Part shown: in pieces, positions 12,001 through 15,000 of the stretch | Numbering within the stretch: the first letter of the stretch is position 1 | How the letters are laid out: each line of letters starts with the position of its first letter | Origin: a virus | Lineage: Duplodnaviria > Heunggongvirae > Uroviricota > Caudoviricetes | IMG/VR virus record: IMGVR_UViG_2537561944_000027 | Length of the DNA: 27,837 nt | Reading direction: 5' to 3' (one strand) | Made by a program: the position numbers

Positions 12001-15000
12001 TCTGAATATCCTTTGGTTCCCATTCCGTATAACCATTTGGCTGCCCAAGCTCTGGATTTATATCGACCTGCAACACAGTTAGCGGTATGCCCCAGAACTT
12101 CAAAACCTCCCGAATAAAGCGGTATGTCAGCGGATGTTCGCAACCGGTATCCATAAAGATGTAGCAGACGTTATTGCCAGCCTTTCTTTGTTCTTCCATC
12201 AGGTGAACAAGATATGCAGATGTTCTCCCGCCAGAAAAACTAACTACATGAGTTATGCACATTTGCGTAATTCCGATAACTCGTTGAAGCGTTCCATAAA
12301 CATCCCGTAGGCATGGCCCGGTGCCAGTGGAATCACTTTGAACATCTCTGTTGCCGGGATACCTTCCAATACAGGCCAGAAAGAGCCATCATCAAGTCCG
12401 AGATCGCGGCGTTCGGTTGCCAGCATGATGAGATCGGCATATTTCACTGGCGTGCTCATAACAGGAGGTAACCCGTATTTCTCACGGATTACGGCGTCTA
12501 TTTTTTCTTCCATCCGTTTATAGTCAGGAAGAAGTCGTTTCAGTGGCGCGGGGATGTCCTGGCAATATGCTTCTGTTGCATCATGCATTAACGCTTCAAA
12601 AGCAAATTCCTGCGGCACCAGCTGGCTGCAAAGCACCGCATGCTGGGCGACACTGTAGAAGTGTGAAAGATGTCCTGCAAAGCGACAGATATTTGAAAGG
12701 GAAACTGCGATATCGTTAATCACGATGTCGTCTTTATTTATCTTGTCATAATAAAAATGCTTCCCGGAAAAAGTTTTAATAAATGACATTTCGTTCTCCA
12801 CTTTATATGCGCTGCACCGCGCTGAATTCTGCTAAAAGGAAGCTCTCACCATCCGGTGATTATTGAGTTAATTACGTTTCCATAAATGCCCCCGCAGGGG
12901 CATTTGCAGTAATGAAATCAGGCGGTGAAAGTACCAATAAAGGTTTCTACTTTGCTGTCTTTGAATTTCTCAACAAGCAGATCACGAAATTCGTTAGCCA
13001 TTTCTTCCTGCATCGCTTCCAGCTGAATAATGCGCAGAACCAGTACAGGACGATCGCCAGTGATAATGCTGAGGCGTAATTTAAACGGACGTTCTTTCAG
13101 GCCTTCAAACGGAACGCATTTAAATTCAAATGCCACTGGCATAATGTCTTTGGTCTTCGCTTCGACAGACTCCATCAGGGAGCGTTTGCCGCTGAAGTCA
13201 TTGTCTTCAAAATCAGCGGTCTGGTTTGCTTCAATTGTGATTTTACGGACTGCCGCAGCCGCTTTGGTTGCCTGAATGGTGTCACCATTAGCATCAAAGC
13301 CCACAAGGTAGTCGGCCCAGTCTTCAATCCATTCTGCCAGTGACTTCTGGGAGTTACGCTCGCCATTAACAGACAACAGAGCAGAAAACGGTGCTGTCTT
13401 TTTCAGTTTGAGGGTGGCGGTGTTATCTGCGTGACCTGGTTCATCAATAGTACCCAGGTTAAGCACACTGACGGCTCGCATATTATCGGCATCGATAAAG
13501 CAGCGGGTGCCTTCATCTGCAAGATCTTTAGAATAACGGGTAAAGTCATCGATGCTGGCAGTGGAAAGCGCACCACGGAAACGGAAGCGATTTAAATTAA
13601 ATTTTTCCAGATCATGAATGCGGAAATTCTCAGGCAATGCCACAGCATCGGCACCAATATTACTGATAATTTCATTAACACCCTGAGCAGAAATAAGGGC
13701 ATGGATTTGATTAATTGCGGTTGCGTCTAAGTTCTGAGACATAATAAGTCCTCACTATATAAAGATATTCAGTGATGAGATAAATAATCAGTTAATTAAG
13801 AACGATATTAATGACCTGCTGCGCGGAGTTTTCCGTCAGGTTCACCGGCAAGAGTCAGTAATTGTCCCTGGTCTTCCTGCAGAATAGTCAGTCGACCACC
13901 GCGATTGACATACATCGGCGTTTCGGTGGTGTCTTCTTCGGAAATTTTCCCGCGGTTAGTCGGGCGAACATATGAGAGTTTGTGTTTGATTTTCACACGG
14001 TTCTCATCAAACGGTTCGATTTCCAGGTTGAGCGAGACCTTACCTTTGGTTTTCGTGTTCATCACACCGGAAGCGACTTCACTGAGAACTGCGCCGATTT
14101 TGGTTTCAAATACGCCGCCGTCCAGCTCCCCGATAAATGCCTGCACATCAGTACTGCGTTCGCTAGCCATTTTGCTGCTCCTCATCATATCGACCCTGCA
14201 AGGTCGGTTGGTTTCTCCACAAAACAGAGAAGAACACCTGCGGTGGCAGCCGCCCGGCTGGATTGGGTTATGAGCCCGTCGTCCGGTGATGCTCTTCTCT
14301 GTTTTGTAAAAAGAGCGGTACCAGCCGGAAGCAAGTGTACAAACTGGTACCGCCAAAGCAGTGGCTGTTGTGGTGGGGTTGTCACTCAGGCGTATGGTCA
14401 ACCTGACAATCCGGTGTCCTCAACGGGGAAAGAGTAACCCCGCCATACTTACCGCCGCGCCATTTCGCGGATTACCACAACGCTGAGAGCACTTAGCAAG
14501 TTACGGCACCACACTTTGTCGCGGTTCCATAAATGCCCTCATCGTTGCACCCTGGTCTCTTCCCAGGCGTCAAACCGGATCGCCGCGCTGGTTAGGCGTC
14601 TTATCAGCATCATCATTGACTTGCACATTCCGGCTACCTGGTTTTTTTGCCCGAGCAAGGAGTGGATTGTCCCCTTTAACGTCCCCAGACCGCTAACGAC
14701 GCATGTGCCATACGCCGTGTTACAACCAAATTTTGTTTAATCTTGCCTGCGGCATGTTTCTTTTAGATACATTATGTATCTCAAGGGTACATTGTCAAGT
14801 ATAAAAAAACCTGCCGAAGCAGGTTATAAATATTGATTAGGCCTTTATTTTGTATCTTCTTGGTTTTCCTGAGAAAATTACTGTACCAATTATAGAGCAA
14901 TTACCGTTAATCTTAATGTAAGGCTCAGGCCAGTTTGGGTTTAATGCTTTGAGATAACGCTGTGTTCCATCTTCTATCAATCGCTTGAAGGTGGTTTCGC

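What the first reader, a model, noticed from the sequence alone, without database searches (positions are those of the whole stretch)
14171..14836. Early-left leader of ~600 nt with no N-like ORF but with terminator and a 15-bp stem-loop
Between the repressor terminator/pL-like promoter and the first early-left gene, no minus-strand ORF longer than ~29 codons exists (checked by translating from each ATG). The leader contains a terminator-like hairpin (14306-14353, minus) immediately followed by a perfect 15-bp inverted repeat (14219-14233 / 14293-14307) enclosing a 59-nt GC-rich loop, then a small hairpin just before the SD of the YfdP-like gene. Lambdoid phages usually need antitermination to express early-left genes. 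Absence of an N-like protein suggests an RNA-based (HK022 put-like) or host-factor mechanism, or attenuation control.
Basis: partly seen in the sequence, partly recalled or inferred. Interest (0 to 1): 0.5.

Follow-up and report, generated by a model that had tools for sequence, protein, structure and literature searches.

The report
Structured RNA cassette in prophage leader
The 600-base "empty" stretch after this prophage's early-left promoter is a chain of four conserved folded RNAs, one of them a relative of the cell-division small RNA DicF, and the same chain recurs in many temperate phages from lambda-like phages to P1; it does not look like an N- or put-type antitermination site.

Summary
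There is a pL-like promoter, a roughly 590-nt leader with no credible gene, a hairpin followed by a U-tract, a perfect 15-bp stem, and a small hairpin before the ribosome-binding site.

The put-like interpretation is not supported. A covariance model built from seven put RNAs scores 54-91 bits on HK022 and at most 7.5 bits in the leader. No N-like protein was found.

The leader consists of four conserved RNA modules:
- **E1 (14538-14732):** a pseudoknotted RNA also found in P1, epsilon15-like phages and at least 120 viral contigs.
- **E2 (14367-14481):** 93.5% identical to the K-12 Qin segment just upstream of dicF. It occupies a slot filled by a real tRNA-Arg in other phages.
- **E3 (14307-14366):** the "terminator". 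It sits exactly where DicF sits and shares its core, but the Rfam DicF model does not detect it.
- **E4 (14214-14310):** the 15-bp stem is part of a 20-bp helix closing a three-way junction. It is 95% paired, with 11 compensatory pairs. Its invariant hairpin is identical over 13 nt to the tRNA-fMet anticodon arm.

Most likely this is a DicF-type small-RNA cassette. Early-left genes would be expressed by read-through of the E3 terminator, and E4 would be an RNase III-type processing stem like the one in the K-12 dicF-dicB spacer. The functions of E1 and of the E4 loop remain unknown.

The parts
14771..14798 (-). pL-like sigma-70 promoter (TTGACA, 16 nt, CATAAT). It is overlapped by two operator-like imperfect palindromes at 14754-14792.
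   Evidence: 11 of 12 matches; I3 and D2 repeats. Sequence homology to phages of other immunity types ends near 14737.
14801..14825 (-). Rho-independent terminator of the cI-like repressor gene (14837-15511).
   Evidence: repressor identified.
14538..14732 (-). E1, a conserved pseudoknotted RNA. It has the P1 hairpin at 14696-14718, the invariant block GGUAGCCGGAAUGUGCAAG at 14620-14638, a loop/3' pseudoknot (AACC with GGUU in this window), and the P6 hairpin with a GAAGAGA loop at 14551-14567.
   Evidence: P1, phiV10, SPN9TCW, Tyrion, P1-like plasmid. (at least 120 IMG/VR contigs). (41 clusters at 90% identity). (covariation in P1, P2, P5, P6 and the pseudoknot). (profile hit E = 2.6e-40, single copy). 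No Rfam family.
14482..14543 (-). Connector: the stem GAGGGCAUU...AGUGCUCUC encloses a variable insert and leads into E2.
   Evidence: The motif GAGAGCAUU...AGUGCUCUCAGC followed by GUUGUGG recurs in most E1-bearing loci.
14367..14481 (-). E2, a 115-nt domain closed by GUUGUGG/CCACAAC. It is the homologue of the K-12 Qin segment immediately 5' of dicF and occupies a tRNA slot.
   Evidence: 93.5% identity to Qin; matches in 4717 of 5426 E. coli genomes. (in 24 loci a real tRNA-Arg starts 4 nt into GUUGUGG). (that tRNA confirmed in phiV10 and SPN9TCW). (cloverleaf-like minimum-energy fold, but z only -1.06).
14307..14366 (-). E3, a DicF-position small RNA. It has a single-stranded 5' part, UUUGGCGG, a 13-bp hairpin with a pyrimidine-rich loop, and UCUUUUU (a Rho-independent terminator).
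   Evidence: aligned to DicF; shared UUUGGCGGUAyCAGUUU. (36 of 43 clusters keep a 10-13-bp hairpin plus U5 with different stem sequences). (z = -3.6). (the phage E3 profile hits K-12 dicF, E = 0.011). The Rfam DicF model does not detect it.
14214..14310 (-). E4, a three-way-junction RNA. Hairpin A carries the invariant GGGCUCAUAACCC (14265-14277). Hairpin B is variable.
   Evidence: 95% paired against 37-54% for slid controls; 11 pairs with compensatory changes; 0 of 500 shuffles. (covariance model: 108 bits, single copy). (z = -6.0). (found in Enterobacterales). (the 13-mer equals the tRNA-fMet anticodon arm).
14189..14208 (-). Small hairpin with a conserved UGCAG-type loop, just 5' of the ribosome-binding site.
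   Evidence: the stem covaries (GACC/GGUC against GGCGG/CCGCC) while the loop is kept.
14168..14183 (-). Shine-Dalgarno sequence GAGGAG (14178-14183) and the ATG (14170-14168) of the first early-left gene, YfdP/Sb37-like (13808-14170).
   Evidence: (phrog_204).

Best explanation
The leader is a modular non-coding RNA cassette, not an N/nut or put site. The pL transcript first makes E1, a pseudoknotted RNA of unknown role. Next comes E2, a tRNA-slot domain. Then comes E3, a roughly 60-nt DicF-family small RNA.

I infer that the 5' end of E3 is cut out of the precursor next to E2, as RNase E does for DicF. Its 3' end is made by its own Rho-independent terminator. Most transcripts would stop there and yield the small RNA, which most likely acts on host mRNAs by base pairing. 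Its targets are unknown.

Polymerases that read through transcribe E4. Its 20-bp basal helix sits between the terminator and the ribosome-binding site of the first gene. I infer that E4 is an RNase III-type processing element and 5'-UTR element that separates the small RNA from the yfdP-like mRNA. This is what happens in the K-12 dicF-dicB spacer.

On this view the early-left genes are expressed by partial read-through (attenuation) without a dedicated antiterminator.

Shown here: the modules, their conservation and covariation, synteny with dicF, and the absence of N and put. Inferred: the processing enzymes, trans-action of the small RNA, and read-through as the mode of expression.
For: **Synteny with dicF.** Window 14375-14481 is 93.5% identical to the K-12 Qin segment lying between ydfC and dicB that ends about 25 nt 5' of dicF. 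In the pairwise alignment the hairpin takes the place of DicF and shares UUUGGCGGUAyCAGUUU plus a terminator. A profile of the phage E3 sequences picks out K-12 dicF.

**E3 is a conserved terminator hairpin.** 36 of 43 clusters keep a 10-13-bp stem plus U5 with different stem sequences.

**E2 sits in a tRNA slot.** In 24 distinct loci a genuine tRNA-Arg occupies the E2 position, and the U-tract falls at nearly the same distance from E1 (+321 against +326).

**E4 structure.** 95% of cells are paired, 11 pairs show compensatory changes, and 0 of 500 shuffles reach the observed score.

**K-12 has the same design.** After DicF comes a stem of about 21 bp enclosing a branched domain and ending about 17 nt before the dicB ATG. 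RNase III processing there yields the 72-nt DicF, whose 3' end is 19 nt past the terminator end and therefore inside that stem (PMC5069750).

**No antiterminator found.** No N-like protein and no put.

**A viable phage has this leader.** Phage Ayreon, isolated on E. coli K12, carries a 98.6% identical leader, has no annotated N, and has a pL operon of only about 3 kb. The only other hairpin checked in the operon, the one after the yfdQ-like gene, lacks a U-tract.
Against: - No expression or end-mapping data were available, so all processing steps are inferred.
- The Rfam DicF model gives no hit at E <= 10, and the similarity to DicF is limited to about 20 nt.
- A crude duplex test shows no complementarity of E3 to the ftsZ translation start: -24.8 kcal/mol, z = +1.4, against -38.5 for DicF.
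- An RNase III role does not explain why hairpin A of E4 is invariant in sequence, nor why it copies the tRNA-fMet anticodon arm.
- The function of E1 is unknown. It lies close to a strong consensus promoter in only 16 of 97 contexts.
- The predicted cloverleaf of E2 is not statistically distinguished (z = -1.06).
Confidence: 0.55

Rival explanations
1. E1 and/or E4 is a new class of cis-acting antiterminator RNA. It would work like HK022 put but be unrelated in sequence. It would make RNA polymerase resistant to the E3 terminator and to later terminators, replacing N in this group of N-less lambdoid phages.
For: - No N-like protein was found.
- The literature on the related phage LLS leaves early antitermination open and guesses at a put-like RNA (PMC12315714). 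LLS carries part of E4.
- In this phage and some others E1 begins 6 or about 52 nt after a strong promoter.
- Both RNAs have long invariant single-stranded blocks, as expected for a surface that binds a protein.
Against: - There is no similarity to put.
- Each element is present once per genome, with none in the pR operon.
- E1 is usually not near a consensus promoter; only 16 of 97 contexts have one. In P1 it lies after a tRNA and directly upstream of ban.
- E4 lies downstream of the only strong terminator in the leader.
- These elements travel with tRNA genes and small-RNA terminators, which points to RNA processing.
- The one further hairpin examined in the operon, after the yfdQ-like gene, lacks a U-tract.
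Confidence: 0.12
2. Hairpin A of E4 mimics the anticodon arm of a CAU-anticodon tRNA. It would bind a factor that reads that arm: MetRS, TilS, IF3 with the 30S P site, or a VapC-type anticodon nuclease. It would act either as a translational operator for the first gene or as a decoy protecting initiator tRNA.
For: - GGGCUCAUAACCC is invariant in 23 of 25 diverse E4 sequences. The exceptions keep NUCAUWA on three G-C pairs.
- It is identical to 13 nt of E. coli tRNA-fMet, whose sequence was verified.
- The chance of such a 13-mer match to any E. coli tRNA anticodon arm in this leader is about 1e-3. This is my own estimate, made after seeing the match.
- E4 lies about 45 nt upstream of a start codon.
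- The modules travel with tRNA genes, including tRNA(CAU) in P1.
Against: - The resemblance was noticed after the fact.
- Only 3 of the 5 anticodon-stem pairs are kept.
- No binding partner was identified.
- The gene downstream of E4 belongs to several unrelated families, so autoregulation by one protein is unlikely.
- None of the motif matches in genomes lies in a real tRNA.
Confidence: 0.15
3. The leader is a decayed remnant of a phage tRNA array with its spacers and has no function of its own. The hairpins would merely be inherited.
For: - E2 replaces a tRNA.
- Degenerate tRNA-like pieces occur in the same slot in other contigs.
- E1 and E4-like elements flank tRNA genes in P1 and in P1-like plasmids.
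Against: - Compensatory substitutions maintain E1, E3 and E4 across dozens of clusters and several phage families.
- Loops and junctions are invariant while the stems vary.
- The leader is kept at about 98% identity in viable phages with different immunity regions.
Confidence: 0.05

Closest known systems
The dicBF operon of the E. coli K-12 Qin prophage (ydfABC, dicF, dicB) and the DicF small RNA (Rfam RF00039)
   Same: - It is an early operon controlled by a repressor.
- The 107-nt segment just 5' of the small RNA is 93.5% identical.
- The small RNA is in the same position, with the same UUUGGCGGUAyCAGUUU core and a Rho-independent terminator.
- A stem of at least 20 bp lies between the terminator and the next gene's ribosome-binding site.
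   Different: - The 5' seed (UUUCUGGUGACG in DicF) and the loop differ.
- The Rfam model does not detect it.
- No ftsZ complementarity was seen.
- There are no ydfABC genes upstream; E1 is there instead.
- The downstream gene is yfdP-like, not dicB.
- The stem encloses a different domain: E4 hairpins A and B instead of an STnc100-like domain.
STnc100 (Rfam RF02076), a prophage small RNA of unknown function
   Same: - It has the same architecture: a branched domain closed by an acceptor-like stem, followed by a terminator hairpin, placed next to tRNA genes.
- A canonical copy lies in this window at 25144-25352, after three tRNAs.
- The SfV and ST64B early-left leaders and the K-12 dicF-dicB spacer score 34-40 bits, below the threshold of 47.
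   Different: The E2 and E3 of this window give no STnc100 hit even at E <= 10. The domain here is of the other (pre-dicF) type.
HK022 putL/putR antiterminator RNAs
   Same: It is a structured RNA in the pL leader of a lambdoid phage that lacks N.
   Different: - There is no sequence or structure match (at most 7.5 bits here, against 54-91 bits for the controls).
- The put RNAs are about 70 nt with two stems. The elements here are 97-195 nt, with a pseudoknot or a three-way junction.
- There is no second copy in the pR operon.
Small RNAs derived from tRNA transcripts (tRNA 3' external transcribed spacers such as 3'ETS-leuZ)
   Same: In epsilon15-like phages the E3-type small RNA lies directly 3' of a tRNA-Arg in one transcript. 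In this window E2 fills that tRNA slot.
   Different: There is no genuine tRNA here. The comparison to 3'ETS-leuZ rests on my own knowledge of that system and was not tested.
RNase III sites in phage leaders (the lambda N leader; the dicF-dicB spacer)
   Same: It is a long uninterrupted helix between a leader element and the first ribosome-binding site.
   Different: E4 carries sequence-invariant apical hairpins that an RNase III site does not need. Cleavage was not tested.

Membership tests
DicF (Rfam RF00039) | Scores above the family's gathering threshold with the covariance model. | tested here: not met
   There was no DicF hit in the window at the gathering threshold or at E <= 10 over 14100-14900. 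The K-12 control scores 76.7 bits.
DicF (Rfam RF00039) | Lies in a repressor-controlled prophage early operon, directly 3' of the conserved pre-dicF segment. | tested here: met
   Window 14375-14481 is 93.5% identical to Qin L001:3001-3107, which ends about 25 nt 5' of dicF. pL and the cI-like repressor lie upstream.
DicF (Rfam RF00039) | A 50-60-nt RNA ending in a Rho-independent terminator. | tested here: met
   There is a 13-bp stem plus UCUUUUU (z = -3.6). The hairpin plus U5 is kept, with covarying stems, in 36 of 43 clusters. This is sequence-level evidence only; no RNA ends were mapped.
DicF (Rfam RF00039) | Detectable sequence similarity to DicF. | tested here: inconclusive
   It shares UUUGGCGGUAyCAGUUU and the tail CCGCyCUUUUU. 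An nhmmer profile of the phage E3 sequences hits K-12 dicF at the correct position, but only at E = 0.011.
DicF (Rfam RF00039) | The 3' region pairs with the ftsZ ribosome-binding site. | tested here: inconclusive
   With duplexfold, DicF gives -38.5 kcal/mol (z = -1.2) and the window's E3 gives -24.8 (z = +1.4). The method is crude and does not clearly separate even the true pair.
DicF (Rfam RF00039) | Hfq binding; RNase E cleavage at the 5' end; RNase III alternative 3' end. | not testable with these tools
   Known for K-12 DicF (PMC5069750). No data exist for this element.
HK022 put antiterminator RNA | Two-stem RNA matching the put consensus (GAACGxC...GUCGG...GGCGGG..A.GG..GA..G.CAAU). 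| tested here: not met
   Model R1, built from 7 put RNAs, scores putL 90.8 and putR 53.9 bits. The best hit in the window leader is 7.5 bits (E = 1.8), and the sister phages reach at most 12.1 bits.
HK022 put antiterminator RNA | Copies downstream of both early promoters. | tested here: not met
   E4 and E1 are each single-copy in the window and in the complete phage Ayreon.
HK022 put antiterminator RNA | Suppresses terminators through the RNA polymerase beta-prime zinc-binding domain. | not testable with these tools
   This needs transcription assays.
Lambda-type N/nut antitermination | An N-like arginine-rich protein encoded next to pL or elsewhere in the phage. | tested here: not met
   PHROGs scans of 29 ORFs of the window found none. 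Ayreon has none annotated. A very divergent small N cannot be fully excluded.
Lambda-type N/nut antitermination | A conserved boxA followed by a boxB hairpin in the leader. | tested here: not met
   CGCTCTTTTTACAA overlaps the terminator tail in this window, but homologues read CGCCCTTTTT, CGTCCTTTTT or CGACCTTTTT. No boxB-type hairpin follows it.
STnc100 (Rfam RF02076) | Covariance-model score at or above the gathering threshold. | tested here: not met
   There was no hit in 14100-14900 at E <= 10. Relatives in SfV, ST64B and K-12 score 34-40 bits against a threshold of 47.
tRNA (for E2) | Recognised as a tRNA by ARAGORN or by Rfam RF00005. | tested here: not met
   Only the three tRNAs at 24783-25034 were found. 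E2 merely occupies a tRNA slot and has a cloverleaf-like minimum-energy fold.
RNase III processing stem | An uninterrupted double helix of about two turns (at least 20 bp). | tested here: met
   The basal helix is 20 bp, and 94.9% of its cells are paired across 25 sequences. The minimum-energy fold shows the same helix.
RNase III processing stem | Cleavage that depends on rnc. | not testable with these tools
   This is inferred only by analogy with the K-12 dicF-dicB spacer.

The most novel reading that the evidence does not exclude
E1 (a pseudoknotted RNA of about 190 nt) and E4 (a three-way junction of about 100 nt carrying an exact copy of the initiator-tRNA anticodon hairpin) are two undescribed classes of functional phage RNA. 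One or both would act on host machinery. Either they make RNA polymerase termination-resistant in N-less lambdoid phages, or they mimic a CAU-anticodon tRNA to titrate or decoy a tRNA-reading factor such as MetRS, TilS, IF3/30S or a VapC-type anticodon nuclease.
Probability: 0.2. Interest if true: 0.85.

Novelty: new variant of a known kind. Interest (0 to 1): 0.6.

Why it matters
- **DicF-type small RNAs in viable phages.** A 2016 study found no DicF hits in phage databases and saw it as a feature of defective prophages (PMC5069750). Here a DicF-position small RNA sits in the pL leader of inducible, medically relevant phages: Stx2c phages, cdtI, SfV and ST64B relatives.
- **Unannotated RNA motifs.** E1 and E4 are supported by covariation, and neither they nor E2 match any family in Rfam 15. 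E1 and E4-type elements also occur in phage P1.
- **Annotation errors.** Several phage records annotate 'hypothetical proteins' across E3/E4, and phrog_33599 appears to be built on such ORF calls.
- **An open question made testable.** How lambdoid phages without N express their early genes is unresolved. The candidate RNA elements are now defined to the nucleotide, and the put family is excluded.

Tried and rejected
- **HK022 put.** I built a covariance model from seven put RNAs; it gave nothing in the leader or in sister phages. The King 2011 paper on put-like RNAs is not held in the library, and the put alignment in the 2022 paper's supplement is only an image.
- **Known RNA families.** An Rfam search of 14100-14900 at E <= 10 returned only chance matches to the repressor terminator.
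- **Coding potential.** The 39-aa ORF has no PHROG match. The 66-aa GTG ORF matches phrog_33599, but its frame is broken by indels in 14 of 25 homologues and its substitutions are compensatory.
- **boxA.** The boxA-like string is not conserved in homologues.
- **Relation to the late-region RNAs.** Self-similarity between the leader and the window's late tRNA/STnc100 region was not found.
- **tRNA in E4 or E2.** ARAGORN and Rfam find none.
- **ftsZ targeting by E3.** No signal, but the method is crude.
- **E1 always at the transcript start.** This holds in only 16 of 97 contexts.
- **Genome-wide scan for the E4 loop motif.** Hits outside Enterobacterales are what chance predicts; I estimate about 140 expected for that degenerate 19-mer. 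None lies in a tRNA. The E4 model confirms only the Enterobacterales hits, apart from one record labelled Chryseobacterium (97.5 bits) and a weak 37.7-bit hit in an Acidobacteriaceae MAG.
- **Further terminators in the operon.** The hairpin after the yfdQ-like gene has no U-tract.
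Full report
**Setting.** The window is an E. coli lambdoid prophage. It is 100% identical over the leader to strain E2865, and the leader is about 98% identical to phages cdtI, Ayreon, 2H10 and twelve or more Stx2c phages. PHROGs scans give this gene order: integrases (5012-6289 and 7937-9139, minus strand); an early-left operon with PAPS-reductase-like, YfdR-like, YfdQ-like and YfdP/Sb37-like genes (13808-14170, minus strand); the leader; a cI-like repressor (14837-15511, minus strand); cro-like and cII-like genes; an IS3-family insertion; an Ant/Rha-like gene preceded by isrK and C4 RNAs; an O-like gene; and a Q-like gene (23486-24280).

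**Checking the observation.**
- The promoter TTGACA-16-CATAAT lies at 14798-14771 on the minus strand, just after the repressor terminator.
- The 'terminator-like hairpin' is a 13-bp stem followed by UCUUUUU (-21.5 kcal/mol, z = -3.6).
- The perfect 15-bp repeat is part of a longer helix.
- A small hairpin precedes GAGGAG and the ATG at 14170.
- The longest ATG-started minus-strand ORF has 29 codons.
- ORFs with GTG or TTG starts exist (39 aa, 66 aa, and an in-frame extension of the first gene). The 66-aa ORF and the extension cross the terminator and the stem-loop. Homologues differ in length there by non-multiples of three in 14 of 25 cases, and their substitutions are compensatory.
- The leader as a whole folds better than all shuffles (z = -3.8).

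**The terminator is a DicF-position small RNA (E3).**
- Part of the leader (14375-14481) matches 4717 of 5426 complete E. coli genomes. In K-12 the match, at 93.5% identity, lies in the Qin prophage between ydfC and dicB and ends about 25 nt 5' of dicF.
- In the pairwise alignment the window's hairpin replaces DicF. It shares UUUGGCGGUAyCAGUUU and the terminator tail, but the 5' seed and the loop differ.
- The Rfam DicF model finds K-12 dicF at 76.7 bits and nothing in the window, even at E <= 10.
- A profile built from the phage versions finds K-12 dicF at the right place with E = 0.011.
- Across 43 sequence clusters from phages and viral contigs, 36 keep a 10-13-bp hairpin plus at least five U at this position, with many different stem sequences. 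Selection therefore acts on the structure.
- I call E3 a DicF-family small RNA by position and architecture, but not a member of RF00039.
- A crude duplex calculation shows no ftsZ complementarity, so its targets are unknown.

**E2 sits in a tRNA slot.** The conserved pre-dicF segment (14367-14481) is closed by GUUGUGG/CCACAAC. Among 106 distinct loci that carry E1, 80 have GUUGUGG at the same distance. In 24 of them a genuine tRNA-Arg begins four bases into that motif, and the following U-tract lies at +321, against +326 in this window. Rfam confirms the tRNA in phiV10 and SPN9TCW. E2 is not a tRNA by ARAGORN or Rfam. Its minimum-energy fold is a four-way junction, but the z-score is only -1.06. 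That E2 serves as a tRNA-like processing handle for the small RNA is therefore an inference.

**E4: the 15-bp stem is the base of a three-way junction.**
- The element directly follows the U-tract in SfV, ST64B, Citrobacter phiNP, Klebsiella Kp4866-6 and at least 120 IMG/VR contigs.
- In an alignment of 25 diverse sequences, the proposed structure is 95.0% paired, against 37-54% for slid controls. The structure is a 20-bp basal helix; hairpin A with 5 bp, an internal loop, three G-C pairs and a 7-nt loop; and a variable hairpin B. It has 11 pairs with changes on both sides, and no shuffle out of 500 reaches the observed covariation.
- The window's minimum-energy fold is the same structure (z = -6.0).
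- A covariance model finds exactly one copy in the window and one in the complete Ayreon genome. It finds two diverged copies in P1 upstream of tciA, and copies in Enterobacterales genomes: Kosakonia, Citrobacter, Enterobacter, Buttiauxella, Trabulsiella, Mixta and Yersinia.
- The tip of hairpin A, GGGCUCAUAACCC, is nearly invariant. It is identical to 13 nt of the anticodon arm of E. coli initiator tRNA, whose sequence I verified against the E. coli genome collection.

**E1: a further conserved RNA at the 5' end.**
- The first 200 nt of the leader (14538-14732) match P1 (between trnI and ban), P1-like plasmids (2 nt after a tRNA with a CAU anticodon), epsilon15-like phages such as phiV10, SPN9TCW and Tyrion, and at least 120 viral contigs forming 41 clusters at 90% identity.
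- Long blocks are invariant, for example GGUAGCCGGAAUGUGCAAG, while the helices covary.
- A hairpin loop pairs with a downstream strand to form a pseudoknot. It reads CACC/GGUG in most sequences and AACC/GGUU in this window's group.
- No Rfam family matches.
- E1 is single-copy per phage. It is close to a strong consensus promoter in only 16 of 97 contexts.

**Antitermination.**
- No N-like protein was found.
- A model built from seven put RNAs recovers HK022 putL and putR (90.8 and 53.9 bits). It gives at most 12 bits anywhere in the window or in SfV, ST64B, phiNP, Kp4866-6, Ayreon or Qin.
- The boxA-like string in the terminator tail is not conserved.
- Ayreon, a phage isolated on E. coli K12 with a 98.6% identical leader, has no N annotated, a pL operon of about 3 kb, and its integrase on the other strand.
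- The hairpin after the yfdQ-like gene lacks a U-tract.
- A dedicated antiterminator is therefore not obviously required. Read-through of the E3 terminator is the simplest account of early-left expression. A 2025 paper on the related phage LLS notes the missing N and guesses at a put-type RNA, so the question is open in the literature.

**How it most likely works.** K-12 offers an experimentally studied parallel. DicF is cut out of the dicB operon transcript by RNase E at its 5' end. It ends either at its terminator (53 nt) or, on read-through transcripts, at an RNase III cut 19 nt further on (72 nt) (PMC5069750). Folding the K-12 spacer shows that this cut falls in a stem of about 21 bp. The stem begins 8-9 nt after the 53-nt DicF 3' end (3-4 nt after its U-tract), encloses a branched domain, and ends about 17 nt before the dicB start codon. 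E4 has the same placement and a 20-bp helix.

I therefore propose the following. pL transcription yields E1 and E2, then the E3 small RNA at its terminator. Read-through transcripts are cut in the E4 stem, which releases the small RNA and defines the 5' end of the yfdP-like mRNA. The modules, their conservation and their synteny are shown. The enzymes, the trans-action of E3, and read-through as the mode of expression are inferred.

**What remains unexplained.** An RNase III role does not account for the invariant sequence of E4 hairpin A or its identity to the tRNA-fMet anticodon arm. Nothing here explains E1. Both could bind a host factor. The rivals I consider are a put-like function carried by an unrelated RNA, and tRNA-anticodon mimicry acting as an operator or a decoy. 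Neither is excluded.

**Relation to known families.**
- The SfV and ST64B versions of the cassette and the K-12 dicF-dicB spacer score 34-40 bits against STnc100, below its threshold of 47.
- A canonical STnc100 lies after the tRNA array in the late region of this window.
- The general design, in which a tRNA or tRNA-slot domain is followed by a terminator-ended small RNA, thus recurs in both early and late leaders of these prophages.

**Verdict.** The put/N interpretation is not supported. The region is a new variant of the DicF/STnc100 kind of prophage small-RNA cassette. It contains two covariation-supported RNA motifs, E1 and E4, that are absent from Rfam 15 and whose functions are open.

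Noticed in passing
window 16373-17529: An IS3-family element (orfA 17227-17529, orfB 16373-17191, both on the minus strand) is inserted right after the cII-like ORF. That ORF is 171 aa here and 183 aa in phage Ayreon, so the prophage's pR operon is interrupted.
   Followed up: partly
window 18020-18208: isrK (67 bits) and C4 antisense RNA (83.6 bits) lie side by side upstream of an Ant/Rha-like gene, forming a P1 immI-type module inside the pR operon. The 383-aa ORF 17660-18811 overlaps both RNAs, so its start is probably over-called.
   Followed up: no
window 24783-25412: Three tRNAs (CAU, Arg-UCG, Arg-UCU) are followed by STnc100 (170.9 bits), with AgvB on the opposite strand. STnc100 has the same design as the early-left cassettes of SfV and ST64B, which score 35-40 bits against it.
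   Followed up: partly
L015 (phage P1, NC_005856): 218-317, 492-580 and 1501-1694: P1 carries two E4-like elements (34.6 and 41.5 bits) upstream of tciA, and an E1 between trnI and ban. The E4-like elements overlap the small CDSs plp and upl annotated on the opposite strand.
   Followed up: partly
L016:1742-1815 (phage phiV10, NC_007804.2): A tRNA-Arg (73.3 bits) is not annotated in the record. It sits between E1 and a DicF-like hairpin with a U-tract.
   Followed up: partly
L003:1700-1775 (SfV) and L004:1945-2015 (ST64B): A different conserved element lies right after pL in these phages: ACAGGCAGGACGCCCACGAAGUAGCCGCC...CCAGGAUGAUUCG. It has two apparent stem-loops and shares a CAGGAUGA motif with put, but the put model does not detect it (at most 12 bits).
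   Followed up: partly
window 14185-14385 (minus strand): The 66-aa GTG ORF across E3/E4 matches phrog_33599 (E = 3.7e-17), and several phage records annotate a 'hypothetical protein' there. The frame is not conserved, so this PHROG probably collects spurious ORF calls over a conserved RNA.
   Followed up: yes
window 5012-6289 and 7937-9139 (both minus strand): Two integrase genes lie within 3 kb of each other at the left end of the prophage. This suggests tandem or nested integrated elements.
   Followed up: no
window 12878-12905 (minus strand): A 9-bp G+C-rich hairpin (AAAUGCCCC-UGCG-GGGGCAUUU) follows the yfdQ-like stop codon and has no U-tract. The Ayreon record annotates it as a terminator. 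It may be an RNA-stability element.
   Followed up: partly
window 14189-14208 and homologues (alignment): The small hairpin before the ribosome-binding site keeps a UGCAG/UGGCAG loop while its stem changes (GACC/GGUC against GGCGG/CCGCC). This suggests a sequence-specific role that I did not explore.
   Followed up: no
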